NCBI GenBank assembly: GCA_030634545.1
Contig: DAOWAN010000002.1
Location: forward strand, 1 to 57,230
Length of the DNA: 57,230 bases
Direction of reading: 5' to 3'
From: Candidatus Nanohalarchaeota archaeon
Lineage (GTDB): Archaea; EX4484-52; B79-G9
The notes under the pieces were generated by a model. It had not been told where the DNA came from, searched no databases, and saw only the letters and a list, made by a program, of their open reading frames with translations. A program made the position numbers and the translations under genes. Below, one piece after another: positions 198-57,230 of this stretch. Position 1 is the first letter of the stretch, and the number at the start of each line of letters is the position of its first letter.

Positions 198-263
198 ATG
201 GTTAAAAGATTTTATTTCCAGATTAAAAGAAACGTGCCAATGAGCAAAGCTGGTATGAAGTTA
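198..263 (+). repeat. direct repeat copy 1 (partner at 57165-57230)
   Basis: 65/66 identity beginning exactly at the ATG. The upstream sequences are unrelated. Confidence 0.9.
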
Positions 264-5483: not shown

Positions 5484-6977
5484 TCAAATCCTAGAAGATT
5501 CTTCGAGTGCAGATTCCTGCTCTGCCGTGTTCCTCTTATTCTTCACAAAAAATGCAACTAAAATTATTACCAACAGACCTAAACCAATACCGCCCAGATT
5601 CCAGTCTCTTCTAACAGATGTGACAAACCAATGCGTCTCATCTTGCTTATCTAAGTTCTGGTTGACCTTGTCAGTCAGGTTGCCTAGTTGACCGCCGAAC
5701 AGACCTAACGTATCTTTTATTAATTTTTCCATGTTCTCAACCTTTGTCTTTAAAGTTGCGATTGCATCCTGTTCATCTTCATCTGCATCTGTCAGGTCAT
5801 CAAGCTCTGCTTCTGTATAGTTCTTTGTATAGATTTTGTCCCTGTACTGGATTACAGTCTGGTTCTTCTCCTCAACATGGCAGAAAGGGTCATCCCAATC
5901 CCTGTCTTCACAGTATTCAGCCTGCTCTTCAGGTGTCATCAGTCTGACAAAAATCTGTGGCTTGTCATCATCTGGCTGTGAAAAGTTACGGGAGTTGATA
6001 TGTATCGTGAAAGTCTTTTCCATGTCATCAAGATTGTCTGCTGTGAACTTGATAACTTTTTCATAATCCATGCCCGTCTGGTTAGTTCTTGTGATGTCTT
6101 GCGGATTTACAGTGAACACGACTATCTTTTCAGAAACCAAATCAAAGTTGTTCTCAGAAAAAGTTGTCCATGAATCTGATTCCATCTTCAGATTATAAAT
6201 AGTCTCATTCGGTCTTAGTATCAGCACGCCAGAACTCTTGTCATTGTAATTGATAGGGGAGAACGGCGGTGTCAACACTATCTCTAAATTTGTGGGGAGA
6301 TGCCTTGACTCAACAGAGAAAGTGTATGGGATATAATAGCTCGGGTTGACAGTCGGCTGTAAATACTTATTGTCCTTGACCTCAACCTCAAATCCTATCA
6401 GCGTCTCTTCATCAACAAAAGAATAGTTCTTCAGTTCATCTATCAAAAAAGTGTGGGTCATGTTGACATCCACATCAAACTCTTCTAAATTATCAATGTC
6501 TGTTATGGTGTGGTTTATTGTATCATTATTATAGAATAAAAGCGTGTCATTCAGGAAAGCATCCAATTCAATAGGAAGGAATCCTGTGCCTGTTATTGTT
6601 ATTGTTCGGTTGGCTGGAATCTTAGTCTCATTTGTCAGGTAAAAGAATTTGAGCCTTGTGAGATAGTCCTGTTCAAGAGTCTCATTGGTCTTGACGGAGA
6701 AATCAAGTGTCTTGGTCTCATTCAGAGAAAGATTATTGATAACACCAAACTTAAAATGCTCAACTGGTTCAAACGTGACATTATATATTGTGAAATTGTG
6801 CGGAGTTACATTCTGCTGGTAATAGACTGTCAATGAGTAGTTCTGCCTTATGTCTTCAATGACATCTATGTTGAATGTGTCTGGGTTGAGTTCCAGCCCG
6901 AATACCCCTGTGGCACTTAACGTAAATATTACAATTAAAATCATGATGAACTTGTGAAATTTGTCCCAGAATGCCAT
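5484..6977 (-). CDS. type-I-like membrane glycoprotein candidate (497 aa)
   Basis: N-terminal hydrophobic signal (FIMILIVIFTLSATGVFG). C-terminal TM (GGIGLGLLVIILVAFFV) followed by KNKR. I count about 20 N-x-S/T sequons. A TATA box lies 27 nt upstream. Confidence 0.8.
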   Translation of the reverse strand: MAFWDKFHKFIMILIVIFTLSATGVFGLELNPDTFNIDVIEDIRQNYSLTVYYQQNVTPHNFTIYNVTFEPVEHFKFGVINNLSLNETKTLDFSVKTNETLEQDYLTRLKFFYLTNETKIPANRTITITGTGFLPIELDAFLNDTLLFYNNDTINHTITDIDNLEEFDVDVNMTHTFLIDELKNYSFVDEETLIGFEVEVKDNKYLQPTVNPSYYIPYTFSVESRHLPTNLEIVLTPPFSPINYNDKSSGVLILRPNETIYNLKMESDSWTTFSENNFDLVSEKIVVFTVNPQDITRTNQTGMDYEKVIKFTADNLDDMEKTFTIHINSRNFSQPDDDKPQIFVRLMTPEEQAEYCEDRDWDDPFCHVEEKNQTVIQYRDKIYTKNYTEAELDDLTDADEDEQDAIATLKTKVENMEKLIKDTLGLFGGQLGNLTDKVNQNLDKQDETHWFVTSVRRDWNLGGIGLGLLVIILVAFFVKNKRNTAEQESALEESSRI

Positions 6978-7004: not shown

Positions 7005-7020
7005 GTTTATATATTTTCTT
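7005..7020 (-). promoter_or_regulatory. archaeal TATA-box/BRE-like promoter for the 5484-6977 gene run
   Basis: The coding strand reads AAGAAAATATATAAAC. Its 3' end is 27 nt from the ATG at 6977, with no SD in between (leaderless-type). Confidence 0.6.
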
Positions 7021-12585: not shown

Positions 12586-12822
12586 TTAAGACCCTTTGTT
12601 TTCACATTGACAATAATCATTTATTTTAAGTTTTTTGGCATAAACCTTAATTGATTTTTTACATCTACTACATCTTTGTACCATTATTGACCCTTTGTTT
12701 TCACATTGACAATAATAATTTATTTTAAGTTTTTTGGCATAAACCTTAATTGATTTTTTACATCTACTACATCTTTGTACCATTATTGACCTTTTTTTAA
12801 GTAAACACATAATCAGATACAT
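12586..12822 (-). CDS. tandemly duplicated Zn-ribbon mini-domain protein
   Basis: Two in-frame 33-aa units (I)MVQRCSRCKKSIKVYAKKLKIN(Y/D)YCQCENKGS. The likely start is the first MVQR at 12783. Confidence 0.5.
   Translation of the reverse strand: MYLIMCLLKKRSIMVQRCSRCKKSIKVYAKKLKINYYCQCENKGSIMVQRCSRCKKSIKVYAKKLKINDYCQCENKGS
12590..12787. repeat. 2 x 99-bp perfect-phase tandem duplication (one mismatch)
   Basis: Unit 12590-12688 is repeated at 12689-12787 and differs at one base (aataatc vs aataata). The next 4 nt (gacc) start a third unit and then diverge. Confidence 0.9.
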
Positions 12823-15732: not shown

Positions 15733-16287
15733 TCAACAATCAAACAGATTTTGGTCAACTACACAATATATAATGTCATTCCTGCTATAATCATAGATTA
15801 TGTTGAACACATGGTCATTTGTGAATGCGTAATTTGTATCATAGCCCAGATTCGTGAATATGCTGTCATACATCACTGCGTAATCCCTGCATATCCCACC
15901 GCTTTCCTTAATCATCTCAGCAGATTTGACAACATATCCACCACGTTCATCTTTGCTGTAATTAAAGAAACTGTTGACCTGCGAAACAACGCACTCAACC
16001 TGTTCTTTGCTAGTCATGTTAAAATTGCAGAAATTGGTTATGTCAACAACAACAGAATCGTTCCTGCCGTACATCGCATATAAATCGAAGATTGGTGTGC
16101 CGAGCATATTATTCATTGTTATCGGGTAAAATTTGCTGACAATCACAATAAAAGATGTCATTGTAAGTGCAACAAAAATGAAAATTATTGCAAAAACCTG
16201 AAAAATCGTGTTTTTCCTTCTCTTTTTTTCCTCAGTCAGTCTTTCTTTAAGATAATTTTTGGCTTGTTGTTTGTTCATTTTTACCAT
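15733..16287 (-). CDS. membrane-anchored transglutaminase-like cysteine peptidase candidate
   Basis: Basic N-terminus, then a TM (IFQVFAIIFIFVALTMTSFIVIV). GGICRDYAVMYDSIFTNLGYDTNYAF.NDHVFNII fits the transglutaminase-core pattern G.C.dfA..f..l.r.lG...r.v....HaW. Confidence 0.6.
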   Translation of the reverse strand: MVKMNKQQAKNYLKERLTEEKKRRKNTIFQVFAIIFIFVALTMTSFIVIVSKFYPITMNNMLGTPIFDLYAMYGRNDSVVVDITNFCNFNMTSKEQVECVVSQVNSFFNYSKDERGGYVVKSAEMIKESGGICRDYAVMYDSIFTNLGYDTNYAFTNDHVFNIIYDYSRNDIIYCVVDQNLFDC

Positions 16288-20220: not shown

Positions 20221-20562
20221 TTATTCACCTTTTTCAATTTCCAGAAAATTATTTAATTCAGTCACTTGACCAATATCATATTCTGGAAGATTTGGAGTTT
20301 CATAATGTTCTTCTATCCTGATGACAAAACTGCCTTCTATGAATTCAACAACACCTTTAAACCACTTTCCTTTCATGTATGTTGCGATTATTTTGTCTCC
20401 TTCATAGATTTCTTCGCCATTTTTGTATTTTAGACCTGCGTACTGTGTTATTTTTGCTTCATGTTGACAATCAATTAATCTTAGAATATTTCTTCTATTT
20501 TTAAAATCTAAACGTACTATTTCTCCATCGTCAAACAAAGCTTTATATTTGATTTCTCTCAT
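20221..20562 (-). CDS. YopX-like phage protein
   Basis: MREIKYKA...QYAGLKYKNGEEIYEGDKI matches the YopX pattern MreIKFRaW...qfTGLkDknGkeIYEGDiv. Confidence 0.75.
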   Translation of the reverse strand: MREIKYKALFDDGEIVRLDFKNRRNILRLIDCQHEAKITQYAGLKYKNGEEIYEGDKIIATYMKGKWFKGVVEFIEGSFVIRIEEHYETPNLPEYDIGQVTELNNFLEIEKGE

Positions 20563-21644
20563 TATTCTTCACCCTCTTCTTGTTCTTTATTTATCATGTC
20601 AAGTGCTTTCTGCAAAGCTTCATTCAGTCCTGTCTTTTCCCTGAACTCATCCAGAATGTCACGTATCTCCTGCCTTTTCTCTTCAAACCTGTCTTCTGCT
20701 TCTTCACCAACATAATTGACAATGGCTTGCCTGACAAATTCTCTTGACTTTTTTGGAATGACTATCAATGCGTTTGCTTCACATTTCCTCACACCATATT
20801 TGCTGAGATATTCTTGTGCATAGGGAAGATTGAAATTTGGATGCAGTTTGCCTGATTTGGTTCTTCCTTGCACTATCTTTCCATTTTGCAATTCTGCAAT
20901 AGCCCCTTTGCTTCCTGTAATCAGATTGTCAATCCATGTTAATTTATTTTCTTCAATGAAATCATAGTCAAGACCGAACCTTTTGATTATCAAGTCTTCT
21001 GGATTGTAGCCTGTCTCACCATCTGCCCATTCAATGAACATCAAATCTCTTATGTTTTTCCTTAAAAAATCTGAAATCCTTAACCCATCTGGGTCATGGT
21101 CTCCGCAGTATAATAATACGCATTTAAGACCTTTTTGTTCAGCTTCCTTGAACCTTCTTGAATAGATTGCTCTCTGGTGCATCGAAGACCAGCCCTTTGA
21201 TGTTGCGATTGGTATATGGAATTTCTGGCATACTGGTCTGAACAATGTCTTCAGGTCAACTTTCTCGACAATCATCTGGATATAATACTCTTCACCATCC
21301 CACCAGTCAGGCGTGTACCATTCTTCACAATCCAGAGAAGCTTGAACATACTCTTTCATGTACTGCACTGGTGTTTGTTCAGTTGGCACTTCAACACCTT
21401 CAAATGCCCTGCCGACATCTTCTTCTGTGAAATCTATTGGCAGGATGCCTTTCTTCCTGCATTTGTTCATTAGATTTTCGACCTTATCAAAATCTGCCTT
21501 TGTGATAAGATTTGCCGTTTCTAATTGATATGCCCAGCCCCTCGCTGATACTTTAAAGCCGATTTGTCTTGATATTTTCTTTATCTCTACTGCGAATTTC
21601 CGAAGGTTCTCTTCAGTTGCTTTTTTCGTTAAGTCATATTCCAT
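20562..21644 (-). CDS. Topo VIA/Spo11-like protein (putative 5Y-CAP plus Toprim), 360 aa
   Basis: MIVEKVDLKTLF (Toprim Glu), SKGWSS and YCGDHDPDGLRI (DxDxxG) match the Topo VI-A pattern vEK...kG.p...D.DP.G..I. Glu-to-DxD spacing is 55 aa. SARGWAYQL lies 88 aa upstream of the Glu as a candidate catalytic-Tyr segment. Start taken at the ATG after GAGGTAAAA. Confidence 0.6.
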   Translation of the reverse strand: MEYDLTKKATEENLRKFAVEIKKISRQIGFKVSARGWAYQLETANLITKADFDKVENLMNKCRKKGILPIDFTEEDVGRAFEGVEVPTEQTPVQYMKEYVQASLDCEEWYTPDWWDGEEYYIQMIVEKVDLKTLFRPVCQKFHIPIATSKGWSSMHQRAIYSRRFKEAEQKGLKCVLLYCGDHDPDGLRISDFLRKNIRDLMFIEWADGETGYNPEDLIIKRFGLDYDFIEENKLTWIDNLITGSKGAIAELQNGKIVQGRTKSGKLHPNFNLPYAQEYLSKYGVRKCEANALIVIPKKSREFVRQAIVNYVGEEAEDRFEEKRQEIRDILDEFREKTGLNEALQKALDMINKEQEEGEE

Positions 21645-21646
21645 TT

Positions 21647-21892
21647 TTACCTCAGTTTTTTTATGTCTTTTAGACCCATTGCACTTGCAACTCTCCAAAC
21701 AGTGTAATTTCTATGTGTTCTTTTGTCTGCTATTTTTATGATTACTTTATTAAAATCTCTATATTCTTTATTAACAGATTTTTCATAATTTTCTTCTGCT
21801 TTTTTAATTCTGGCATTAAAGAATTTAACAACGATTTCTAAGTCTTTCTCCAATATCTTTCTTTTCTTAGCACTGATATTTGCTTTTAACAT
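21647..21892 (-). CDS. hypothetical basic protein (81 aa)
   Basis: ATG ORF. Possible C-terminal HTH (YTVWRVASAMGLKDIKKL). Confidence 0.55.
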   Translation of the reverse strand: MLKANISAKKRKILEKDLEIVVKFFNARIKKAEENYEKSVNKEYRDFNKVIIKIADKRTHRNYTVWRVASAMGLKDIKKLR

Positions 21893-23317: not shown

Positions 23318-24724
23318 TTAATCCACCCCGAAGAACTCTGGCTCTTCCAGTGCAATCATGACTAATTTGCCAGCCATCTTTGTGATGCACTCATGATATG
23401 AATGCTCTGTGTGATGCCCTTTCTCATGACCTAATTCATGTAATATCAGTGATGTTGTCATTGGACAGACTGTGATGTCAAAGAAGCCCTTTAATCTGCT
23501 TACGTTGAATGTCATGACTCTGTGACCATACTGTGCCACAACCATGTTAAAACCGCCTTTAACGAACTCTACACCGATGTCTATACCCAGCAATCTCTTA
23601 GCTATCTTCTGTGCATATTTGCCGACCCTGTCCATACTCACAGTCGGTCTGACGCTTTGTGCATTTGTGAAATTAGTCCCGAACCTGTCGCTTGTGCTTT
23701 CTATCGCACCGAACCTCTTGATGTTTTCCCATTCAGCAGAACCCATCTCTGAGCCATGAACAACATTGTAGCCGTGACTGATTGCTTCATCTATTGAGTT
23801 TGGGTCAAAATTGTTTGCCACTGCGACCTTATCTCCGAATCTTTTCTTTACGATACTTTCAACAGCTTCCTTCTCAATCCTGTCATCACTCATCGCTGAC
23901 CTAACCCATAAGTCAGAACTGTTCTCTTTCTCAATATCTTCATAAGTGTTGTTCAGAACCTCTGCATATAAATCCTGTAAGAAGCTAGGCAGTACAGTTT
24001 CCCTATCTAAGCTCAAAGGTATCTTCTGCTGTACGTCAATGTCATATCCACATTCGATGTCTGTTATCGGGATGCCCATCTCAAAGATATACTTAGTGTC
24101 TCTCCGTGTCTTGTGAAGATGAACTTTTGTCATCCTTTTTGTCCTTGACATCGTGCCTTCTTTCTCTATCTCAGTCTGTAAGGTTGTCTTGAATATTTTG
24201 TCAGGCTCTACATAATCAACTTTGACACCGTTCACATAATAATTGATGCCTTTTGGGACTAGGTACATCATAGCATCTTCCAGCATCTCACCAGCATCCT
24301 GTTTGTTGGCTCTTAATTTTATTGTTATCATTGAGCCAGAATCCCTTTTAAAGCGTCTGTTGTGCCTTCCTTTGCTGTCAAATACAATAGTGCCTGTGGT
24401 TGTCTCAACCTTTGCTTCGGTGCAGACAGCGAACACCAGCTTCTCTCCTATGTTGAACCGTCCACGCTTCTCTGAATCTCTTCGTTTATATGTGTCTGCA
24501 AACAGTGTGTAAGCATGTGTCAAATTCCTGAAACCTATCGGGCTGTCATCTTCGATGCTCAAAGTCATCATGCCTTTTGACTGCACCATGTTGACTCTGC
24601 ATTGTGTGATAGGCTCATCCAAAGCGTTCTGTACCAGTTCTCTTAATATGAACTTTTTACCTTTCTTGCCTATCAGATTCTTCAGACCTTCTCGGTCAAC
24701 TGCAAACCAGTTTTTGTCTTTCAT
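23318..24724 (-). CDS. GHKL-superfamily ATPase with C-terminal HExxH (zincin-like) motif, 468 aa
   Basis: ELVQNALDE (N-box, aa 29-37), IEDDSPIG (G1-like) and RGRFNIGEK (G2 box) follow the Bergerat-fold order seen in Hsp90, MutL, Topo VIB and MORC. HELGH is at aa 429-433 (nt 23426-23440), followed by GHH..H..HE. Confidence 0.75.
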   Translation of the reverse strand: MKDKNWFAVDREGLKNLIGKKGKKFILRELVQNALDEPITQCRVNMVQSKGMMTLSIEDDSPIGFRNLTHAYTLFADTYKRRDSEKRGRFNIGEKLVFAVCTEAKVETTTGTIVFDSKGRHNRRFKRDSGSMITIKLRANKQDAGEMLEDAMMYLVPKGINYYVNGVKVDYVEPDKIFKTTLQTEIEKEGTMSRTKRMTKVHLHKTRRDTKYIFEMGIPITDIECGYDIDVQQKIPLSLDRETVLPSFLQDLYAEVLNNTYEDIEKENSSDLWVRSAMSDDRIEKEAVESIVKKRFGDKVAVANNFDPNSIDEAISHGYNVVHGSEMGSAEWENIKRFGAIESTSDRFGTNFTNAQSVRPTVSMDRVGKYAQKIAKRLLGIDIGVEFVKGGFNMVVAQYGHRVMTFNVSRLKGFFDITVCPMTTSLILHELGHEKGHHTEHSYHECITKMAGKLVMIALEEPEFFGVD

Positions 24725-24920: not shown

Positions 24921-26912
24921 TTATTTTTTCTTTTTCTTGAAATTCTTCTTGTATTTTACCAATATCAACAGTAAGAAAAATATGATTGCAACTGCACCCA
25001 CAATTATCATCGTGTTCTTGTTTCTTTCCTTGCTGATTATATCTTCCAATTCCTTTATGAGTCTCTGTTGCTCTTCATTGTTCAGTCTCAGCTTCTCTAC
25101 CAGTTCCGCCTGCTCTTCAGAATTAAGCTCAAGCTCAGATATTATTATTACCTGTTCATCAAGATTAAGTTGCATGTTGATTATAATCTCTGCCTGCTCT
25201 TCTGTTGTCAGTTCCAGATTAGATATAATCTCTGCCTGCTCTCCAGTGCTTAGCTGAAGCTCTGTTATCAGCCTTGCCTGTTCTTCTATGTTCAACTGAA
25301 GCTCTGTTATCAGCCTTGCCTGTTCTTCTGTTGACAGTTCCATCGCCAATATGATTAATGCCTGCTCTTCAACCTTCCCAGTTATCTCCTGTATGAATAT
25401 GACATCTTCTGCAATGGTGTTCTGCAATGCAGATATGATTTCACCCTGTTCTGCAAAGCTCAGTTCCATCTCTGCAATCAATCTTGCCTGCTCTTCTGTC
25501 TGAATCTCTAACAGACCTATAAGTATAGCCTTTTCCAGAAGATTTATGTTCAGGTTATCTATTATTATTGCCTGTTCCTGCACATTCAGGCTCAACTGCT
25601 GTATCATGATTGCCTGTTCCTGTACTGAAAGCTCTAATTGGGCAATGATGATAGCTTTTTCATCCACTGTCAACTGAAGCTGGTCAATTATATCCGTCTG
25701 TTCCAATATTGTCCTGTCAAGCTCTGCTATCAAAAGACCTTTCTCTTCAATAGTCATCTCAAATTGTGAAATAAGCTCTGTCATCTGGTTGACTGTAATT
25801 TCAAGCTGGTTAATCAATAAGGCTTTTTCCTCTATTGTCAATTTCAGCCTGTCTATAATCTCTGCCTGTTCCTGTATCGTCAAATCAAGATGTGATATTA
25901 ACCTTGCCTGCTCATCAAGAGTAAGCTGTAATTCTTCAAGCAACCTTATCTTGTCTTCCCTTAAATCTATCAGATTATCAATCAATATCAGAATCTCGTC
26001 AATCTCTAAATTAGCAGAATTTATGATGTCAATTAGATTAGACCTGCACTCGGAAAAAGTTGAATATCCATAAGCAAGACATATATCAGGAACTTGTTTT
26101 TGAACACATACACATTGGTCTTGGTCAACAACATAATCACCAGAGCATGTCAAAGGACAGATTTTAGTTATGCTCTCCACACAATGCGGTTGGGCTGGGT
26201 CATTCCAATCAGTGCCTTTGCAGAAATTCTGTTGCCAGATGCCGTCATAGACCTGACCACGAACCCAGAGACAGTCGCTTCCATCATAATATTTGTTATT
26301 ACTGCCGTAAGGTATATCTAAAAATAAATTATCATATTGTATGTTCAATATCTTTGTTGTGAACGGTCTGTCTCCACTCCAGCCTTCAATCTCTTCAATC
26401 TTACTCCATCTTTGCATAATATTATTGTTTTGGTCAAGCAGTTCAACATACCAAGAGCATCCATTTTCAGAATCATAATCAATGCCACCATAATCTCCAA
26501 GATAATATCTATCATACCAAGTACAATGGCTGTTGCAATAAAGAGTTTTATCACATACATCACCATACGCACAACTACTTCTATCACAATCCCTGTAACC
26601 AGCAACATAAACATCGTAAATAGGGCAGACACCTGAAATTCCAATATCTTCAATATACACACTGCATGCACCAAAATTATCAGAACTAAATTCTTTGCAT
26701 CCTTGGAAACTGTAATAATTTTCACCTGTATGAACCCTGAATTTCCATGTCTCACCTGATTGATGCGTCACAAGAATATCAAGCGGTATTCCAATCCCGA
26801 TTAAAGCTGTCTGCCTGCTTGGACTTATGAATACAGTAATTGCCAAAAGAAATAAAATAACCACTACTATTATCGTACCCCGTACTTTACTCTTTGTTTT
26901 CTTCTTTACCAT
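24921..26912 (-). CDS. membrane-anchored spike or tether candidate: Cys-rich head, about 320-aa 14-residue-repeat coiled coil, C-terminal TM (663 aa)
   Basis: MVKKKTKSKVRG plus a TM. A Cys-rich domain at aa 35-290 is paralogous to 30417-31478. About 23 repeats of LxLT.EEQA.II.. span aa 300-622. TM (MIIVGAVAIIFFLLLILV) and a KKNFKKKKK tail. Confidence 0.85.
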   Translation of the reverse strand: MVKKKTKSKVRGTIIVVVILFLLAITVFISPSRQTALIGIGIPLDILVTHQSGETWKFRVHTGENYYSFQGCKEFSSDNFGACSVYIEDIGISGVCPIYDVYVAGYRDCDRSSCAYGDVCDKTLYCNSHCTWYDRYYLGDYGGIDYDSENGCSWYVELLDQNNNIMQRWSKIEEIEGWSGDRPFTTKILNIQYDNLFLDIPYGSNNKYYDGSDCLWVRGQVYDGIWQQNFCKGTDWNDPAQPHCVESITKICPLTCSGDYVVDQDQCVCVQKQVPDICLAYGYSTFSECRSNLIDIINSANLEIDEILILIDNLIDLREDKIRLLEELQLTLDEQARLISHLDLTIQEQAEIIDRLKLTIEEKALLINQLEITVNQMTELISQFEMTIEEKGLLIAELDRTILEQTDIIDQLQLTVDEKAIIIAQLELSVQEQAIMIQQLSLNVQEQAIIIDNLNINLLEKAILIGLLEIQTEEQARLIAEMELSFAEQGEIISALQNTIAEDVIFIQEITGKVEEQALIILAMELSTEEQARLITELQLNIEEQARLITELQLSTGEQAEIISNLELTTEEQAEIIINMQLNLDEQVIIISELELNSEEQAELVEKLRLNNEEQQRLIKELEDIISKERNKNTMIIVGAVAIIFFLLLILVKYKKNFKKKKK
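25047..26015. repeat. about 23 tandem 42-bp (14-codon) coding repeats
   Basis: In-frame periodicity of 42 bp. Adjacent units can be near-identical: gctctgttatcagccttgcctgttcttct occurs at 25259 and again at 25301. Confidence 0.85.
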
Positions 26913-26924
26913 CTATTTTAAGAT

Positions 26925-27182
26925 TTATTCCCATTCAAACCATTTGTTTGCTAAGAATCCCCAGAACCATAGATTAAAGATTCCGTAACATAATATCAAA
27001 AAGCCTGCCAGCATCATCAGGTTTGTCCTGGTCGGGTCAATAAGACCTCTCAGATAAACCATCAATACCAAAGGCAGTCCTGATACTAAGCCTGCAACAT
27101 AGCTTTTCAGTGTTGTCAAAACATTCTTAATGTCCCAAAATTTTCTTGCTTTAACTCTTGCTTTTCTTCTTTTTTTTGCCAT
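26925..27182 (-). CDS. small membrane protein (85 aa, 2-3 TM) with polybasic N-terminus
   Basis: MAKKRRKARVKARKFW..., then hydrophobic helices (GLVSGLPLVLMVYL, LMMLAGFLILCYGIFNLWFWGFL). Confidence 0.7.
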   Translation of the reverse strand: MAKKRRKARVKARKFWDIKNVLTTLKSYVAGLVSGLPLVLMVYLRGLIDPTRTNLMMLAGFLILCYGIFNLWFWGFLANKWFEWE

Positions 27183-30416: not shown

Positions 30417-31478
30417 TCACCTTTTCTTCTTTGTTTTCCTGTTCCTGTTGAACAAGATGCTGAATGTGATAAGCATTAATATAAATAATATTATTATGAT
30501 GATGGTGTTCGTCAGTTTAAATTCAAAAGGCTCTTCTGGTTCTTGTTCTGGTGGCTCTTCCTCTGGTGGCTCTTCCTCAAGTGTGCATTCGTCATTCACA
30601 CAGAAAAAGCCTTCTGAACAGTCTGAATCTGAAATACATTCTGGCTGTGGTTCAACACAAGTGCATGAGTCATAATCAAGCTCTTTGTCTTCTGGACATC
30701 CTAATTTACATAATAAAGTCACTGGCTCTATACAGTCTGGCTCATCAAGACCGTCATTACCAAGACAGACATTATATCTGTATCTGTCATCTTCAACCTG
30801 AAATTTCACACTTATACATGATTTTATACTAGAGCCGTCTGCACGTCTCTGGACAATTCCGTAATGGTCAGATATAGTTTTTATAGAAGTCCCTTCATAC
30901 TTGAAATCAATGGCTTCCCTGTAATATTTGTCTTTTTCCCAGTCTTCACCATATTTATCCTGTGCAGATAATTCCTTTATCAGGTTGCCTTCCTTGTCTT
31001 TAACTAAAATATACCATGCACAATTATCATAACTGTCATAGATTGCACCGCCGTATGTACCTAAATCATAGCCGTCAATCCAACTGCAATGACTTTCACA
31101 ATAATCTCCTCTGCTTGTTGAAGTTCTTTCATCACAATTCTCACCGTACATGCAGTTGCTTCTGCTTGCGATACTGTCACAGTCACGCCAGCCTTCACCA
31201 TAGCATTGTTCAATAGTGCAGTCAAATTCATAGTCAATCACTTCACCCCAGACACGGCACGCACTTTTTCCAGAACATCCAGTCGGCTTGCAACCAGTCT
31301 TCTTCCAATACTTGTCAAAAGCATTGAATGTTATCTTCAAATCTTCTGTCTCAAGAACGAAGTCAGTTCCCATGCCGATTAGTGCAGTCTGACGTACAAA
31401 AAATATTGCCATAAGAAAAATTATCAGAATGGTTGAAACTATCAAAATCTTTGTCTTTCTCTTAATTTTATCTGCCAT
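30417..31478 (-). CDS. membrane-anchored Cys-rich ectodomain protein, paralog of the head of 24921-26912 (353 aa)
   Basis: MADKIKRKTK plus a TM, then VRQTALIGMG. Shared blocks with 24921-26912: GWRDCD/GYRDCD, CMYGENCDE/CAYGDVCDK, SHCSWIDGYDLGTYGGAIYDSYDNCAWYILV/SHCTWYDRYYLGDYGGIDYDSENGCSWYVEL. Acidic EEPPEEEPPEQEPEEP linker, then a C-terminal TM and NRNRKTKKKR. Confidence 0.85.
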   Translation of the reverse strand: MADKIKRKTKILIVSTILIIFLMAIFFVRQTALIGMGTDFVLETEDLKITFNAFDKYWKKTGCKPTGCSGKSACRVWGEVIDYEFDCTIEQCYGEGWRDCDSIASRSNCMYGENCDERTSTSRGDYCESHCSWIDGYDLGTYGGAIYDSYDNCAWYILVKDKEGNLIKELSAQDKYGEDWEKDKYYREAIDFKYEGTSIKTISDHYGIVQRRADGSSIKSCISVKFQVEDDRYRYNVCLGNDGLDEPDCIEPVTLLCKLGCPEDKELDYDSCTCVEPQPECISDSDCSEGFFCVNDECTLEEEPPEEEPPEQEPEEPFEFKLTNTIIIIILFILMLITFSILFNRNRKTKKKR

Positions 31479-31502
31479 CTTCAAAAAAAAGATTCTCTGC
31501 CT

Positions 31503-33832: not shown

Positions 33833-35347
33833 TTACTTCAACCCCAGAAAGTTTAGTTTGCTCATTAAATTCTTTATTGCGAACAGGACAACACCTACTG
33901 CGATGATTATTAAGATGCCCTGCCATGTGAATATGAAGTCTATGAAAGTCTTGAATAAGAAGTAAACAAGACCGCCTGCTGACAATGAGCCGATTACGAA
34001 CATGACTATATTGACATTATCCTTCTTTTTCTTCTTTGCTTCATACGTGTTGTAAAGGTAGCCGAAAACTCCTAATGATGTCAATACGCTTAGAATTATC
34101 GATACAATCAATATGTTCTCTTTAAGCATTTCCAAAAAGCCTTTTTTTGTCTGGCAGTCTGGGTCTTCCATATCTATCTTCCCGTCAGCATCATTGTCAA
34201 CACCGTCATCACATATCTCATCTGTGCTTTCATAACATCTTGTGTTCCTTGCATCGCAACCATACTGGCATTCCTTAATCAGATAAATTCCATTTACACA
34301 ATCCCATAAGTCTGAACCTACACATACATTTTTTGTGCAGTCTTCAGTGACCTCTTCTGCCTTGAACGAATAAGAACAAGTATCTTTTTCATCAGAGATT
34401 ATGTCTCTTGCTGTGATTGTGCATGAGAATGATTTTGTACCGCTTGTTGAAATTGCACTCACTGTTGCCTTGACTGTCCTGCTCTCTCCACCCAATAAGT
34501 CAACACCGTAAGTGCTTAATTGTGATGATGCACCTGTACCGCAGTCAACACCTAGATTGAAGCTTGCCCTTTCAGTCTGGCTCGTCCCAATGTTCGTTAT
34601 AACAAAAGATTGCGTCTCTGTATCGCCTGATTCAACCGTGAATCCGCCAAGATTACTGCAATCCAAGTCTGGCTCTCCTGTGACCTGCCTTATGCCGACC
34701 CAGTCAGCGTCAATCTCAATCGTGAACAATCCTGTTGTCATCGGTGTCTCCAATTCAACTTCCAACAGATTACCTGTATCAACATTTATCCTTCTTATAA
34801 TTGGGTTTTGTGAAAGGAATTCTGCTTTCTTGTTCTGGATGATATTGCTTGTTTCTGAATTATATCTCTGGACTTTGGCAAGAGCCTTGTCATAATCCCA
34901 AATCGCAAAATAACACCAGTCATCATTCGGGTCTGAACATTCATCACCGATAAAATTCTCCCTTACAGGTTTATAATCACCGTATGCACCATCATCAACA
35001 AATTGCCAGTTCTGTGTGTTTACAAAAAACATTGCGTCATAATTTGGTGTTGACAGCCATTGGTTTCTCAGCAAATCTCCTTCCCATCTTACAAAGACTT
35101 TGTCATTTCTTCCAGTTGTGGTATCTTGCGTCAATGTTATTGGGTCTAGTCCGTCAACAGAGAATTCTATCTCGAAATCCCTGTCTCTTGTCTCGCCGAA
35201 TCTTGCATCCTGACCTATTGAATATGTTTGGATACAATAGCATTCCGCACCGAAAAGACCGCCTTTCCTGAAAGCATGACCGCCTATCGTACCGCTTGGA
35301 CATACACCGATGCAAGTTCCTAATGCAGTGTTAGTTGTCTTGACCAT
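33833..35347 (-). CDS. Cys-rich ectodomain protein with three C-terminal TM helices (504 aa as called). It lacks its own signal peptide and is probably the distal part of a longer product (see 35462-35464).
   Basis: CDDGVDNDADGKIDMEDPDC matches the widespread CxDGxDNDxDGxxD Cys-rich repeat. The 38 codons upstream are open and coding-like, in frame with 35462-35740 across a single TAA. Confidence 0.8.
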   Translation of the reverse strand: MVKTTNTALGTCIGVCPSGTIGGHAFRKGGLFGAECYCIQTYSIGQDARFGETRDRDFEIEFSVDGLDPITLTQDTTTGRNDKVFVRWEGDLLRNQWLSTPNYDAMFFVNTQNWQFVDDGAYGDYKPVRENFIGDECSDPNDDWCYFAIWDYDKALAKVQRYNSETSNIIQNKKAEFLSQNPIIRRINVDTGNLLEVELETPMTTGLFTIEIDADWVGIRQVTGEPDLDCSNLGGFTVESGDTETQSFVITNIGTSQTERASFNLGVDCGTGASSQLSTYGVDLLGGESRTVKATVSAISTSGTKSFSCTITARDIISDEKDTCSYSFKAEEVTEDCTKNVCVGSDLWDCVNGIYLIKECQYGCDARNTRCYESTDEICDDGVDNDADGKIDMEDPDCQTKKGFLEMLKENILIVSIILSVLTSLGVFGYLYNTYEAKKKKKDNVNIVMFVIGSLSAGGLVYFLFKTFIDFIFTWQGILIIIAVGVVLFAIKNLMSKLNFLGLK

Positions 35348-35461
35348 CTGTGCTATTGAATAAATCTTAGAAGTGTCTTTGAAAACAGGAAATTGCTCGC
35401 TTTGTGATATTTTTGTAAAAGAACCAGAAACAGAATTTGTAACTTCCCAATCACCGCCCTC

Positions 35462-35464
35462 TTA
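35462..35464 (-). other. single in-frame TAA separating a leader-bearing ORF (35465-35740) from its apparent continuation (33833-35461)
   Basis: 35740, 35464 and 35347 are all in the same reading frame. The 114 nt at 35348-35461 have no stop, no ATG/GTG/TTG and no SD, and 29 of 38 third positions are A/T. Confidence 0.8.
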
Positions 35465-35740
35465 TTGTTCAAGTTTTTTTTCGATGTCATCTTTATTCCA
35501 ACTTATTGCGAGACATTCACCGCTTCCTGTACCTGCTCTTGCAAGAACTCTTATCTTGCTTCCGCCATCAATCAAAGATACTGTATCAATAGATAGAACT
35601 GAAGTCGAGCCACAAGCTATTGTAGTCTCCCTGACAAAGAAAATGCCACTAACAATCAGTATGAAAAGAATTATAATAACAGGCACAATCACCTTTTTTT
35701 TAGCAGGTTTTTTAGACCTTCTTTTTGGTTTTTTTGCCAT
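35462..35740 (-). CDS. polybasic-leader/TM protein (92 aa as called)
   Basis: MAKKPKRRSKKPAKKK plus a TM (VIVPVIIILFILIVSGIFF), then VRETTIACG, the same layout as the N-termini of 24921-26912 and 30417-31478. It has its own TATA promoter. Confidence 0.75.
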   Translation of the reverse strand: MAKKPKRRSKKPAKKKVIVPVIIILFILIVSGIFFVRETTIACGSTSVLSIDTVSLIDGGSKIRVLARAGTGSGECLAISWNKDDIEKKLEQ

Positions 35741-49608: not shown

Positions 49609-49625
49609 GGTTTATATATTTTATT
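49609..49625 (-). promoter_or_regulatory. TATA-box promoter
   Basis: The coding strand reads AATAAAATATATAAACC, ending 22 nt from the ATG at 49586. Confidence 0.55.
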
Positions 49626-52965: not shown

Positions 52966-52982
52966 GATTTATATATTTTCTT
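52966..52982 (-). promoter_or_regulatory. TATA-box promoter of the minus-strand block
   Basis: The coding strand reads AAGAAAATATATAAATC, ending 22 nt from the ATG at 52943. Confidence 0.6.
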
Positions 52983-53243: not shown

Positions 53244-53259
53244 AAGAAAATATATAAAC
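53244..53259 (+). promoter_or_regulatory. TATA-box promoter of the plus-strand block
   Basis: AAGAAAATATATAAAC, ending 22 nt from the ATG at 53282, with no SD. Confidence 0.6.
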
Positions 53260-57124: not shown

Positions 57125-57140
57125 AAAAAAATATATAAAC
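57125..57140 (+). promoter_or_regulatory. TATA-box promoter for the second copy of the 140-aa ORF
   Basis: AAAAAAATATATAAAC, ending 24 nt from the ATG at 57165. Confidence 0.55.
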
Positions 57141-57164: not shown

Positions 57165-57230
57165 ATGGTTAAAAGATTCTATTTCCAGATTAAAAGAAAC
57201 GTGCCAATGAGCAAAGCTGGTATGAAGTTA
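57165..57230 (+). CDS. 5' end (22 codons) of a second copy of the 198-620 ORF, truncated by the window edge
   Basis: 65 of 66 nt are identical to 198-263. The one difference (TTT at 210-212 vs TTC at 57177-57179) is synonymous (Phe5). Confidence 0.7.
   Translation, partial: MVKRFYFQIKRNVPMSKAGMKL

What the first reader, a model, noticed from the sequence alone, without database searches (positions are those of the whole stretch)
25047..26015. About 23 consecutive 14-residue (42-bp) repeats form a roughly 320-aa predicted coiled coil between a Cys-rich head and a C-terminal membrane anchor
What the sequence shows:
- Aa 300-622 of the 663-aa protein consist of LxLT(x)EEQA(x)II(xx) units with strict 14-residue (two-heptad) periodicity.
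- Some adjacent 42-bp units share identical 29-nt stretches (25259 and 25301), which implies recent expansion or ongoing unequal recombination.
- The protein has a polybasic N-terminal TM or signal, a globular Cys-rich domain, this stalk, a TM helix and a KKNFKKKKK tail.

Inference:
- As a continuous alpha-helical coiled coil, the stalk would be tens of nanometres long (about 45-50 nm at about 0.15 nm per residue).
- If the N-terminal segment is cleaved, this is a long-stalked spike. If it is retained, the protein is anchored at both ends, like a tether.
- Repeat-number variation could tune spike length.
Basis: partly seen in the sequence, partly recalled or inferred. Interest (0 to 1): 0.65.

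Follow-up and report, generated by a model that had tools for sequence, protein, structure and literature searches.

The report
Repeat-stalk surface protein of archaeal mobile element
This gene encodes a membrane-anchored "lollipop" protein, with a variable head on a rod of 23 exact 14-residue helical repeats; it belongs to a large undescribed family on archaeal mobile elements, some of which also carry a gamete-type membrane fusogen, so it may be the part that recognises the target membrane.

Summary
ORF 24921-26912 (-) encodes 663 aa, and aa 301-622 (nt 25047-26012) are 23 uninterrupted 14-residue units (lag-14 identity 0.40, z=16.5).

- Two AlphaFold2 models (this protein and a relative) predict a 10-residue helix plus a 4-residue break in every unit, at pLDDT 83-97, not one long helix.
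- A capping box (T/S/N at position 3, E/D/Q at position 6) recurs in about 75-80% of 2,428 family units.
- Only one heptad position is consistently hydrophobic. The 45-50 nm continuous coiled coil is therefore unproven.
- Neither model matches a PDB or viral fold.
- Only one unit pair is recently duplicated; the rest of the array is old (about 50% DNA identity).

An exhaustive search finds at least 130 strong relatives. They share a signal peptide, at least 45 head types, a stalk of 3-33 units whose indels are multiples of 14, and a TM helix with a basic tail.

The window is a whole 57-kb cold-seep contig that looks like an archaeal mobile element. It carries a stalk-less paralogue of the head and an Fsx1-like fusexin gene, which is interrupted by a stop codon.

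Best reading: a modular adhesin or receptor-binding protein on a spacer rod. This is a new variant of a known kind.

The parts
24921..26912 (-). Whole gene: 663-aa head-stalk-anchor protein
   Evidence: ORF list. No Pfam, PHROGs or NCBIfam family. Family of at least 130 strong relatives.
26823..26912 (-). aa 1-30: polybasic n-region (MVKKKTKSKVRG) plus a 17-residue hydrophobic segment. Probably a signal peptide, possibly a signal anchor.
   Evidence: Hydropathy 2.92 at aa 12-30. 148 of 157 relatives have an N-terminal hydrophobic segment. Cleavage was not testable here.
26055..26822 (-). aa 31-286: Cys-rich globular head (all 18 Cys of the protein lie before the repeat array). Unique head type.
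   Evidence: Head is a singleton among 138 family heads, which fall into 45 clusters. Its only relative is the in-window paralogue. The AlphaFold2 head has pLDDT below 50, so its fold is unknown.
26013..26054 (-). aa 287-300: neck (SECRSNLIDIINSA) joining head to stalk
   Evidence: Aligned with 'SECESWLNNNIASL' and 'SECIDWINENIDIL' of P0006 and P0007.
25047..26012 (-). aa 301-622: 23 in-phase 14-residue (42-bp) units, the acidic helical stalk
   Evidence: AlphaFold2 gives a 10-residue helix plus a 4-residue break per unit.
25257..25340 (-). Units 17 and 18: the only recent tandem duplication (34-nt exact repeat at 25254-25287 and 25296-25329)
   Evidence: The 34-nt unitig sits at about 2.4x the flanking depth in run X1.
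25383..25634 (-). Units 10-15: the best conserved landmark of the family (..NLNxNLxxKxxLIxxLxxxxEEQAxLIxxMELSFAEQxEIIxALxNTIxED..)
   Evidence: Invariant columns and per-unit identity of 0.52-0.70 for units 10-14.
24957..25013 (-). aa 634-652: C-terminal transmembrane helix
   Evidence: Hydropathy 3.17. AlphaFold2 predicts helix 612-662. 136 of 157 relatives have a C-terminal hydrophobic segment.
24924..24956 (-). aa 653-663: polybasic cytoplasmic tail KYKKNFKKKKK
   Evidence: Translation. Basic tails occur throughout the family.
30417..31484 (-). Paralogue of the head (355 aa). Same signal segment, Cys-rich head, TM and KKKR tail, but a short acidic Pro/Glu linker in place of the 14-residue stalk.
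   Evidence: BLASTP 36% identity over 289 aa, E 3e-41. An orthologue at 47% identity lies on the syntenic contig L014.
33833..35740 (-). Fsx1-like (archaeal fusexin-like) gene in the same gene string, split by an in-frame TAA at 35462-35464. Signal segment, ectodomain and three C-terminal TM helices.
   Evidence: hhalign of its family against a protein carrying the precomputed Pfam PF28161 Fsx1 annotation: probability 95.6%, E 1.2e-8, 227 columns. Stop codon. Three C-terminal TMs. Negative control 1%.
26925..27182 (-). 85-aa two-TM protein 13 nt upstream of the stalk gene, conserved in the syntenic contig L014
47500..48618 (-). 372-aa six-TM protein. Relatives lie near the stalk gene in L001 and directly upstream of it in L007.

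Best explanation
**What it is.** The gene encodes a type I membrane-anchored surface protein built from three exchangeable modules.

- Targeting: an N-terminal basic and hydrophobic segment sends it through the Sec pathway and is probably cleaved (inferred).
- Head: a Cys-rich globular domain is the ligand- or receptor-binding part (inferred from its hypervariability).
- Stalk: 23 x 14-residue, strongly acidic, proline-free helical units form a stiff spacer rod that holds the head away from the membrane.
- Anchor: a single TM helix and a polybasic tail hold it in the membrane.

**How the rod is probably built.** It is most likely not one unbroken coiled-coil helix. It looks like a chain of 10-residue helices, each started by its own N-cap (T/S/N at position 3, E at position 6) and joined by the short L-x-L segment. 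That is a one-helix-per-repeat rod or solenoid with no solved counterpart. Its length, and whether it oligomerises, are not established.

**What it probably does.** Reach is set by the number of whole units, which differs between relatives. The gene sits on a ~57-kb archaeal mobile element or virus whose central 25 kb encodes almost only secreted and membrane proteins, including an Fsx1-like class II fusogen. The most likely role is therefore target recognition and tethering. The variable head binds a surface structure of another cell, or of the host seen from a particle or vesicle, and this precedes close membrane apposition and fusion or DNA transfer. The in-window paralogue with the same head on a very short linker would act at close range.

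**Shown:** periodicity, family, architecture, modularity, context.
**Predicted:** the segmented helices.
**Inferred:** adhesion or tethering, and the link to fusion.
For: **Periodicity and coordinates:**

**Family**
- 568 representatives at E<=1e-3, 234 at <=1e-10 and 130 at <=1e-30.
- 151 of 157 top proteins have in-phase arrays of 3-33 units, median 15.
- 148 of 157 have an N-terminal and 136 of 157 a C-terminal hydrophobic segment.

**Modularity**
- 138 heads fall into 45 unrelated clusters on one conserved stalk.
- CBM96 carbohydrate-binding heads occur in some members.
- Stalk indels are multiples of 14.
- The stalk protein is by far the best conserved protein between otherwise dissimilar contigs.

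**Segmented helices**
- Two AlphaFold2 models show H(10)-break(4) in every unit. Stalk pLDDT is mostly 80-97 in the window protein and 83-93 in P0013.
- In 2,428 family units, position 3 is T/S/N in 73% and position 6 is E/D/Q in 80%. There are 4 Pro in 33,992 residues.

**Mobile-element context**
- Serine recombinase, HNH nuclease, methyltransferase, YopX and a type IIB topoisomerase-like pair.
- No tRNA or housekeeping genes.
- The homologues examined lie on contigs, 30-76 kb in five cases, of co-directional genes mostly without Pfam matches, carrying integrase, Peptidase_S74 or beta-helix proteins.
- Nearly every ORF between 24.9 and 51 kb has a signal or TM segment.

**Fusogen link**
-. 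The Fsx1-like gene is immediately downstream of the stalk gene in L001.
- Fsx1 is a demonstrated fusogen carried by >50-kb archaeal integrated mobile elements (PMC9259645).

**Archaeal host**
- BRE/TATA-like motif about 32 nt upstream of start codons, 7 matches against 0.62 expected, and GGTGAT ribosome-binding sites.
- Related contigs are binned with Promethearchaeia and Pacearchaeota genomes.
Against: - No experiment, no transcript data and no oligomer prediction. AlphaFold2 was run on monomers with only 18 sequences, and it can idealise repeats.
- The breaks contain no Gly or Pro, and L-E-L is helix-friendly, so a continuous helix in an oligomer remains possible.
- A few relatives shift phase by exactly 7 residues, which hints at an underlying heptad logic.
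- An Fsx1-like gene was detectable near the stalk gene in only 3 of 8 independent loci within +/-10 kb. In the window it carries an in-frame stop.
- Its fusexin fold was not verified by structure.
- Head function is unknown (pLDDT below 50, no family match).
- Host assignment rests on binning and promoter-like motifs only.
- One replication-type gene is 50% identical to Bacteroidota phage genes.
Confidence: 0.5

Rival explanations
1. The stalk is one continuous parallel alpha-helical coiled coil (dimer, trimer or higher) about 48 nm long, giving a long spike. The conserved T/S/N and Q are polar core layers, not helix caps.
For: - The 14-residue period equals two heptads, so a continuous coiled coil would need no break.
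- In the register a=I4/I11, d=Q7/L14, three of four core layers are hydrophobic.
- There are 0 Pro and few Gly in the 372 units of 18 proteins. The larger set of 2,428 units has 4 Pro.
- Some relatives shift phase by exactly 7 residues.
- Polar core layers are known in trimeric coiled coils (PMC13580157).
- Profile hits, though insignificant, are all to coiled coils: the PKG leucine zipper and syntaxin SNARE motifs at E 0.03-0.12.
Against: - Two AlphaFold2 models place a break at the same four positions of every unit with high confidence.
- A capping box S/T/N-x-x-E recurs in about 75-80% of units.
- Only heptad class 4 is consistently hydrophobic. The conserved L2 would fall on the exposed f position, and the 3.5-residue harmonic is weaker than the period-2 and period-7 harmonics.
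- Net charge is about -51 per stalk.
Confidence: 0.27
2. It is an ordinary cell-envelope component of a small-genome archaeon (DPANN or Asgard), a SlaB- or tetrabrachion-like stalk that anchors or spaces the surface layer. On this view the contig is a chromosomal island, not a mobile element.
For: - The architecture (signal peptide, globular domains, helical stalk, C-terminal TM) is the one described for SlaB (PMC6911244).
- Related contigs are binned into Pacearchaeota and Promethearchaeia genomes.
- The neighbourhood is rich in large secreted proteins with lectin-like domains.
Against: - There are no tRNA, ribosomal or metabolic genes in 57 kb. There is a recombinase, HNH nuclease, YopX and a topoisomerase typical of mobile elements.
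- Contigs carrying relatives share almost no other genes.
- An envelope scaffold is not expected to have 45 head types.
- There is no sequence or fold match to any S-layer protein.
Confidence: 0.1
3. It protects the carrier cell instead of attacking a target. As a surface shield or exclusion protein, it keeps other particles or cells at a distance, or masks the receptor, for example to prevent self-fusion or superinfection.
For: - A long, highly acidic rod on the surface would act as a steric and electrostatic spacer.
- Variable heads are also expected in an arms race.
- It is encoded together with many other membrane proteins.
Against: - It does not explain why the stalk is the most conserved protein of these elements while the heads are swapped like receptor-binding modules.
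- CBM96 carbohydrate-binding heads in some members point to binding.
Confidence: 0.08
4. The repeats are SNARE-like zipper motifs. Stalks on two membranes, or a stalk and a partner, zipper towards their TM anchors and help to drive fusion themselves.
For: - It is anchored by a C-terminal TM helix like SNAREs.
- The conserved EEQAxLI resembles the zero-layer region of syntaxins, and the best PDB profile hits include syntaxin 7 and syntaxin 13.
- A fusogen-like gene lies in the same element.
Against: - The hits are not significant (E 0.05-0.12) and are typical of compositional similarity between helical repeats.
- The protein has 320 residues of repeats plus a large head, whereas a SNARE has one motif of about 60 residues.
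- The strongly acidic homotypic stalks would repel each other.
- AlphaFold2 predicts broken helices.
Confidence: 0.05

Closest known systems
SlaB of Sulfolobales, and tetrabrachion of Staphylothermus marinus (the latter from my own knowledge): archaeal membrane-anchored stalk proteins
   Same: Sec signal, globular extracellular domains, a long helical stalk and one C-terminal TM helix (PMC6911244). Both are archaeal, and the stalk sets a distance from the membrane.
   Different: - No sequence or fold similarity.
- The stalk here has strict 14-residue units with predicted breaks, is far more acidic and is up to 33 units long.
- Heads are hypervariable.
- The gene is carried on mobile-element-like contigs and is not paired with a lattice protein.
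Trimeric autotransporter adhesins (YadA and similar): head-stalk-anchor adhesins (own knowledge; stalk motifs in PMC4786415)
   Same: A modular head-stalk-anchor logic, a repetitive stalk whose repeat number sets reach, and exchangeable adhesive heads.
   Different: Those are bacterial outer-membrane proteins anchored by a beta-barrel. This protein has a single TM helix and a basic tail. The stalk motifs are unrelated, and the oligomeric state here is unknown.
alpha/beta coiled coils with beta-layers (Tcar0761 MATKDDIAN repeats, OMP100) (PMC4786415)
   Same: Regular alternation of short helices with a 3-4 residue non-helical element. A T/S/N/D residue caps the next helix and a D/E/Q lies three residues later, which is the same capping logic as T3...E6 here.
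   Different: Known beta-layer elements give 6- or 9-residue units (hexads, nonads), not 14. The residue two before the cap should be hydrophobic or Lys, but here it is E/N/Q/T, and a Leu occupies the middle position. No trimer evidence.
Receptor-binding or companion glycoproteins of class II fusogens, and gamete adhesion proteins acting before HAP2 (for example FUS1 in Chlamydomonas) (own knowledge; Fsx1 in PMC9259645)
   Same: A separate, variable, membrane-anchored recognition protein encoded alongside a fusexin-type fusogen.
   Different: This is a functional analogy only. There is no homology, and the pairing with an Fsx1-like gene was detected in 3 of 8 loci.
Designed and natural alpha-solenoids (DHR/THR designs, armadillo, HEAT)
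   Same: These are the best, though insignificant, Foldseek neighbours of both models. All are repeated short helices.
   Different: Those have 2-3 helices per repeat of 30-45 residues. Here there is one 10-residue helix per 14 residues. TM-scores are 0.29 or less and E is 0.004 or more.

Membership tests
Canonical heptad coiled coil | Two hydrophobic core positions (a and d) recurring every 3.5 residues | tested here: not met
   Mean hydropathy by heptad class shows that only class 4 (I4/I11) is consistently hydrophobic. The partner class alternates L14 with Q7. The harmonics at period 2 (17.9) and period 7 (13.6) exceed the one at 3.5 (11.8).
Canonical heptad coiled coil | Uninterrupted alpha-helix through the repeat region | tested here: not met
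   By prediction only. Both AlphaFold2 models break the helix for 4 residues in every unit, in the same register, at pLDDT 83-97.
Canonical heptad coiled coil | Homo-oligomerisation of parallel helices | not testable with these tools
   No multimer prediction was available. Only window or database sequences may be submitted, as monomers.
alpha/beta coiled coil (beta-layer fibres) | N-capping residue D/N/T/S (beta3) and D/E/Q three residues later (position g) | tested here: met
   Position 3 is T/S/N in 73-77% of units and position 6 is E/D/Q in 80-90%. Feature as described in PMC4786415.
alpha/beta coiled coil (beta-layer fibres) | beta1 residue hydrophobic (or Lys), two residues before the cap | tested here: not met
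   Position 1 is E/N/Q/T/K/D. The Leu is at the middle (beta2) position.
alpha/beta coiled coil (beta-layer fibres) | Repeat built from hexads or nonads inserted in heptads | tested here: not met
   The period is strictly 14, with no indels in 23 units.
SlaB/tetrabrachion-type archaeal stalk anchors | Signal peptide, extracellular globular domain(s), helical stalk and a single C-terminal TM helix | tested here: met
   Architecture as described in PMC6911244.
SlaB/tetrabrachion-type archaeal stalk anchors | Sequence or structural homology to a known member | tested here: not met
   No Pfam or NCBIfam hit. No PDB sequence hit below E 0.026. No Foldseek hit below E 0.003.
SlaB/tetrabrachion-type archaeal stalk anchors | Partner lattice protein and S-layer assembly | not testable with these tools
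   Needs imaging or proteomics of the host.
Trimeric autotransporter adhesins | C-terminal 12-stranded beta-barrel anchor formed by a trimer | tested here: not met
   The C-terminus is one hydrophobic helix plus KYKKNFKKKKK.
SNARE proteins | A single SNARE motif of about 60 residues with a zero layer, significantly similar to SNARE profiles | tested here: not met
   Syntaxin 7 and 13 hits are at E 0.05-0.12 only, over 40 residues. No Pfam SNARE hit.
Fsx1 archaeal fusexins (applies to neighbouring gene 33833-35740, not to the stalk protein) | Profile similarity of the ectodomain to Fsx1 | tested here: met
   hhalign gives 95.6% probability, E 1.2e-8, over 227 columns against a protein with the precomputed PF28161 Fsx1 annotation. 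Negative control 1%.
Fsx1 archaeal fusexins (neighbouring gene) | Signal peptide, ectodomain and three C-terminal TM helices | tested here: met
   TMs at aa 412-430, 447-465 and 471-489. The N-terminal basic and hydrophobic segment lies in the upstream fragment. Topology as in PMC9259645.
Fsx1 archaeal fusexins (neighbouring gene) | Three-domain class II fusogen fold with a fusion loop | not tested
Fsx1 archaeal fusexins (neighbouring gene) | Intact reading frame | tested here: not met
   In-frame TAA at 35462-35464, where relative P0161 has Thr.

The most novel reading that the evidence does not exclude
The 14-residue-repeat family would be the recognition and tethering subunit of a fusexin-based membrane-fusion apparatus. 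This apparatus would be carried by ~50-75-kb mobile elements or enveloped viruses of uncultured sediment archaea (Asgard and/or DPANN). A swappable head would choose the partner cell. A rod with a previously unseen one-helix-per-14-residue fold would set the working distance. The Fsx1-like protein would then merge the membranes. That is a prokaryotic counterpart of the adhesion-then-HAP2 sequence of eukaryotic gamete fusion.
Probability: 0.18. Interest if true: 0.85.

Novelty: new variant of a known kind. Interest (0 to 1): 0.62.

Why it matters
- Archaeal fusexins (Fsx1) are the only known prokaryotic relatives of the gamete fusogen HAP2. What brings membranes together before they act, and on what kind of element they travel outside haloarchaea, is unknown (PMC9259645).
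- This is a large, undescribed family of surface proteins with one conserved rod and dozens of exchangeable heads. It sits in the same membrane-protein modules as Fsx1-like genes in cold-seep archaeal elements, which makes it a concrete candidate for the specificity determinant.
- The family also gives a handle for finding such elements, because the stalk is their most conserved protein.
- Independently, the repeat may be a new kind of protein rod. It has strict 14-residue units with a capping box in each, is confidently predicted as segmented helices, and has no solved analogue.
- If the plain coiled-coil reading is right instead, the family is still a clean natural example of stalk length being adjusted in two-heptad steps.

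Tried and rejected
**Searches of the stalk protein that found nothing**
- Pfam, PHROGs and NCBIfam.
- tblastn against 50,697 phage records and 72,556 plasmids.
- Two IMG/VR scans, one with the single protein and one with the alignment.
- The word-indexed protein search found only 17-18 relatives, even with a profile. The exhaustive HMM search was needed to see the real family size.

**Structure**
- The PDB profile search gave only insignificant coiled-coil hits, plus beta-arrestin-like noise for some heads.
- Foldseek of both models against PDB, and of the window protein's model against BFVD, gave nothing below E 0.003.
- The models' coordinates are not exposed, so rod length and handedness could not be measured.

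**Hypotheses considered and set aside**
- alpha/beta coiled-coil membership: rejected on periodicity and on the beta1 residue.
- SNARE homology: rejected as not significant.
- A tailed-virus structural module: no terminase, portal or capsid is recognisable. The putative 'structural' region instead encodes signal- or TM-bearing proteins.
- A Bacteroidota phage origin, suggested by 50% identity of the topoisomerase-like protein to Cellulophaga phage gp62: rejected. It is the only shared gene, and the upstream motifs look archaeal.

**Other checks**
- The Fsx1-like family is not related to the C-terminal third of the 1399-aa protein, which also has three C-terminal TMs (1% probability).
- Repeat-number polymorphism: four cold-seep runs, held as short-read contigs only, show no indel or junction. 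No RNA runs were found.
- Exact-product look-up of the window protein found nothing.
A smaller alignment found two Pacearchaeota-binned contigs.


Full report
**1. The observation**

The minus-strand ORF 24921-26912 encodes 663 aa. Written in rows of 14, residues 301-622 form 23 units with no insertion or deletion. They correspond to nt 25047-26012, essentially the coordinates given.

- Self-identity of the protein is 0.37-0.38 at lags 14, 28, 42 and 56, against about 0.09 elsewhere.
- Against 5000 shuffles the lag-14 value is 16.5 standard deviations out.
- The reported identical stretch is real and longer than stated: 34 nt, 25254-25287 = 25296-25329, in units 17 and 18. Tandem Repeats Finder sees only this part of the array.
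- All other unit pairs average 50% DNA identity. The array as a whole is old, and only one unit was duplicated recently.
- The N-terminal polybasic and hydrophobic segment, the 18-Cys head, the TM helix (aa 634-652) and the KYKKNFKKKKK tail are all as described.

**2. The repeat**

The consensus over 372 units from 18 proteins is E-L-T-I-E-E-Q-A-E-L-I-S-Q-L. The most conserved positions are I11, L14, E6, L10, Q7 and L2. The same pattern holds over 2,428 units from 151 proteins. Four features do not fit a plain heptad coiled coil.

1. Averaged by heptad class, only one class (I4/I11) is always hydrophobic. Its natural partner alternates L14 with Q7. The conserved L2 would face outwards. The strongest hydropathy harmonics are periods 2 and 7, not 3.5.
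2. Position 3 is T, S or N in about 75% of units and position 6 is E, D or Q in 80-90%. This is the classical capping box that starts a helix. It is also the capping logic described for helices that follow beta-layers (PMC4786415).
3. The stalk is very acidic: 70 D+E against 19 K+R in this protein.
4. AlphaFold2 was run with the 18-sequence alignment on this protein, and separately on relative P0013. Both times it predicts a 10-residue helix (positions 4-13) followed by a 4-residue break (L14-x-L2-T3) in every unit. Stalk pLDDT is mostly 80-97 in the window protein and 83-93 in P0013.

On the other side, there is no proline in the 372 units of the 18 proteins and only four in the 33,992 stalk residues of the wider family. 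Gly is rare, and a few relatives shift phase by exactly seven residues. A continuous helix within an oligomer therefore cannot be excluded.

The best hits are designed helical repeats and armadillo proteins, at E of at least 0.004 and TM-score of 0.29 or less. The head is modelled poorly (pLDDT below 50). Model coordinates are not exposed, so I could not measure rod length. The figure of 48 nm (322 x 0.15 nm) applies only if the helix is continuous.

**3. The family**

Word-indexed searches found 17-18 relatives. The exhaustive profile search over 1.84 billion cluster representatives found 568 at E<=1e-3, 234 at <=1e-10 and 130 at <=1e-30.

Among the top 157 proteins:
- 148 have an N-terminal and 136 a C-terminal hydrophobic segment.
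- 151 have in-phase arrays of 3-33 units, median 15.

In the 18-protein alignment, 31 of 35 gap runs inside the stalk are 14, 28 or 42 residues. Units have positional identity across proteins: 0.43 at aligned units against 0.34 at non-aligned ones. A landmark around '..MELSFAEQxEIIxAL..' is nearly invariant.

The heads are not conserved. The heads of 138 proteins fall into 45 BLAST clusters, and the window's head is a singleton. Pfam recognises only CBM96 in a few members. Several relatives start with ordinary short signal peptides that end in A-x-A-like sites (sequences). This favours cleavage and a type I topology.

**4. Context**

The window is an entire 57,230-bp contig from a cold-seep metagenome.

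Mobile-element features:
- It has no tRNA genes and no recognisable housekeeping genes.
- It encodes a serine recombinase, an HNH nuclease, an FkbM methyltransferase, YopX, and a type IIB topoisomerase-like pair. One member of the pair is a GHKL ATPase. The other is an A-subunit-like protein about 50% identical to a protein of Cellulophaga phages. That is the only gene shared with those phages.

Signs of an archaeal host:
- Intergenic regions carry a purine-rich motif followed by a TATA-like motif about 32 nt before start codons, with 7 matches against 0.62 expected.
- Internal genes have GGTGAT ribosome-binding sites. Both features look archaeal.
- Related contigs are binned with Promethearchaeia (Asgard) and Pacearchaeota (DPANN) genomes. 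Binning of such elements is unreliable, as Moi et al. also caution (PMC9259645).

The membrane-protein module:
- Between 24.9 and 51 kb nearly every ORF starts with a signal or TM segment. These include proteins of 801, 1014 and 1399 aa with lectin-like domains.
- No capsid, portal or terminase is recognisable.
- Contigs carrying relatives are 5-76 kb. They have co-directional genes, mostly without Pfam matches, and share almost nothing with the window except the stalk protein, a large secreted protein and a six-TM protein.

**5. Two neighbours that inform function**

- Gene 30417-31484 encodes a 355-aa paralogue of the head (36% identity, E 3e-41). It has the same signal segment, TM helix and basic tail, but a short acidic Pro/Glu linker in place of the stalk. 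The element therefore displays one head type at two distances.
- The distant relative P0018 lies 5 kb from a gene annotated Pfam PF28161 Fsx1.
  - The window's gene 33833-35347 was aligned with its relatives P0161 and P0162 and with the gene immediately downstream of the stalk gene in L001. This alignment matches the Fsx1-annotated protein at 95.6% hhalign probability (E 1.2e-8, 227 ectodomain columns). A control comparison gives 1%.
  - Like Fsx1, it has a signal segment and three C-terminal TM helices (PMC9259645).
  - In the window the gene is split by one in-frame TAA at 35462-35464.
  - The 10.5-kb contig of P0162 is syntenic with the window from the Fsx1-like gene to the small membrane protein that precedes the stalk gene.
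  - Within +/-10 kb, an Fsx1-like gene was detectable by sequence in 3 of 8 independent stalk loci.

**6. Interpretation**

*Shown:* a real, strongly constrained, widespread family with a signal peptide, hypervariable head, conserved 14-residue-repeat rod, TM helix and basic tail. It is carried on mobile-element-like contigs of probable archaeal origin, some of which also carry a fusexin-like gene.

*Predicted:* the rod is a string of capped 10-residue helices, not one long helix.

*Inferred:* the head binds a target-surface structure. The rod acts as a spacer whose reach is set in whole units. The protein acts as an adhesin or tether before membrane fusion or DNA transfer, in the way that receptor-binding companions or gamete adhesion proteins precede class II fusogens.

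*Rivals:*
- A chromosomal envelope stalk like SlaB.
- A shielding or exclusion protein.
- A SNARE-like zipper.

**7. Comparison with known systems**

The overall design matches archaeal stalk anchors such as SlaB (PMC6911244) and bacterial trimeric autotransporter adhesins, but no defining sequence or structural feature of either is met. The capping pattern resembles beta-layer fibres (PMC4786415), but the 14-residue period and the residue at beta1 do not fit. I rate it a new variant of a known kind (membrane-anchored stalked adhesins), possibly with a new rod fold.

**8. Verdict**

Interest is 0.62. The family is large, undescribed and modular, and its association with Fsx1-like genes offers a testable candidate for the missing recognition step of archaeal fusexin systems. 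The function, the fold and the association remain computational inferences.

Noticed in passing
window 33833-35740 (-), stop at 35462-35464: An Fsx1-like (archaeal fusexin-like) gene is interrupted by a single in-frame TAA, where relative P0161 has Thr. The N-terminal fragment (35462-35740) still matches the family profile at E 6e-19. This could be a pseudogene, a sequencing error or read-through.
   Followed up: partly
window 30417-31484 (-): A paralogue of the stalk protein's head (36% identity) has a TM helix and basic tail but no 14-residue stalk. It has a Cys-rich repeat and an EEEPPEEEPPEQEPEEP linker instead. An orthologue (47% identity) lies on the syntenic contig L014.
   Followed up: partly
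window 20562-21698 (-) and 23318-24724 (-): A type IIB topoisomerase-like pair. The 378-aa protein matches phrog_6247 'DNA topoisomerase' (E 7e-73) and is about 50% identical to gp62 of Cellulophaga phages and a Chryseobacterium phage. The 468-aa GHKL/sacsin-like ATPase matches phrog_6077 and one uncultured 485-kb phage record.
   Followed up: partly
window 7006-7019, 49611-49624, 52968-52981 (-); 53245-53258, 57126-57139 (+); also upstream of 35740, 42714 and 48618: A recurrent purine-rich plus TATA-like motif (AGAAAAWATATAAA) lies about 32 nt upstream of start codons, with 7 matches against 0.62 expected. Two promoter regions, before the Fsx1-like gene and before the six-TM gene, are nearly identical over about 33 nt. 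Internal genes have AAAGGTGAT ribosome-binding sites.
   Followed up: partly
window 198-263 and 57165-57230: A 66-nt direct repeat (1 mismatch) covers the start of ORF 198-620 and recurs at the very end of the contig. The flanks differ. It could be an attachment-site duplication, a second gene copy or an assembly wrap-around. A serine recombinase gene (674-1468) lies next to it.
   Followed up: no
window 12590-12795: A 99-bp tandem repeat of 2.1 copies at 98% identity (the highest-scoring TRF hit in the window), largely overlapping a small Cys-rich minus-strand ORF (12586-12822).
   Followed up: no
window 24900-51100: Nearly every ORF in this 26-kb block begins with a basic and hydrophobic segment. 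The block includes 801-, 1014- (Laminin_G_3) and 1399-aa (CBM96, three C-terminal TMs) proteins, several small two-TM proteins and a six-TM protein. No capsid, portal or terminase is recognisable anywhere in the contig.
   Followed up: partly
window 5484-6977 (-): A 497-aa type I membrane protein whose ectodomain is packed with N-x-S/T sequons, at least a dozen by reading the translation. The 663-aa stalk protein has none.
   Followed up: no
family members P0003, P0004, P0016, P0026, P0030 and others (N-termini): A G-[LIVM]-F-[STA] motif sits directly after the N-terminal hydrophobic segment in 31 of 156 relatives, against 0.005 per 70 aa elsewhere. It may be a processing or sorting signal. 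The window protein and its paralogue share RQTALIG[IM]G at that place instead.
   Followed up: partly
P0039, P0044, P0059 (relatives): Some relatives carry near-perfect, evidently recent repeat expansions (for example LELTVEEQAQLISE in P0059). P0039 has a long Ser/Ala/Lys-rich variant of the unit (LSLxEKAxLIxAL). A few proteins (P0065, P0119, P0139) shift repeat phase by exactly 7 residues.
   Followed up: no
L008/L009 (gene after P0007) and L005: Genes with faint or weak Peptidase_S26 or S24 (signal-peptidase clan) annotations lie next to or near the stalk gene in two related contigs. A transglutaminase-core protein lies directly upstream in L009. The window has a DUF553 transglutaminase-like protein at 15733-16287.
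   Followed up: no
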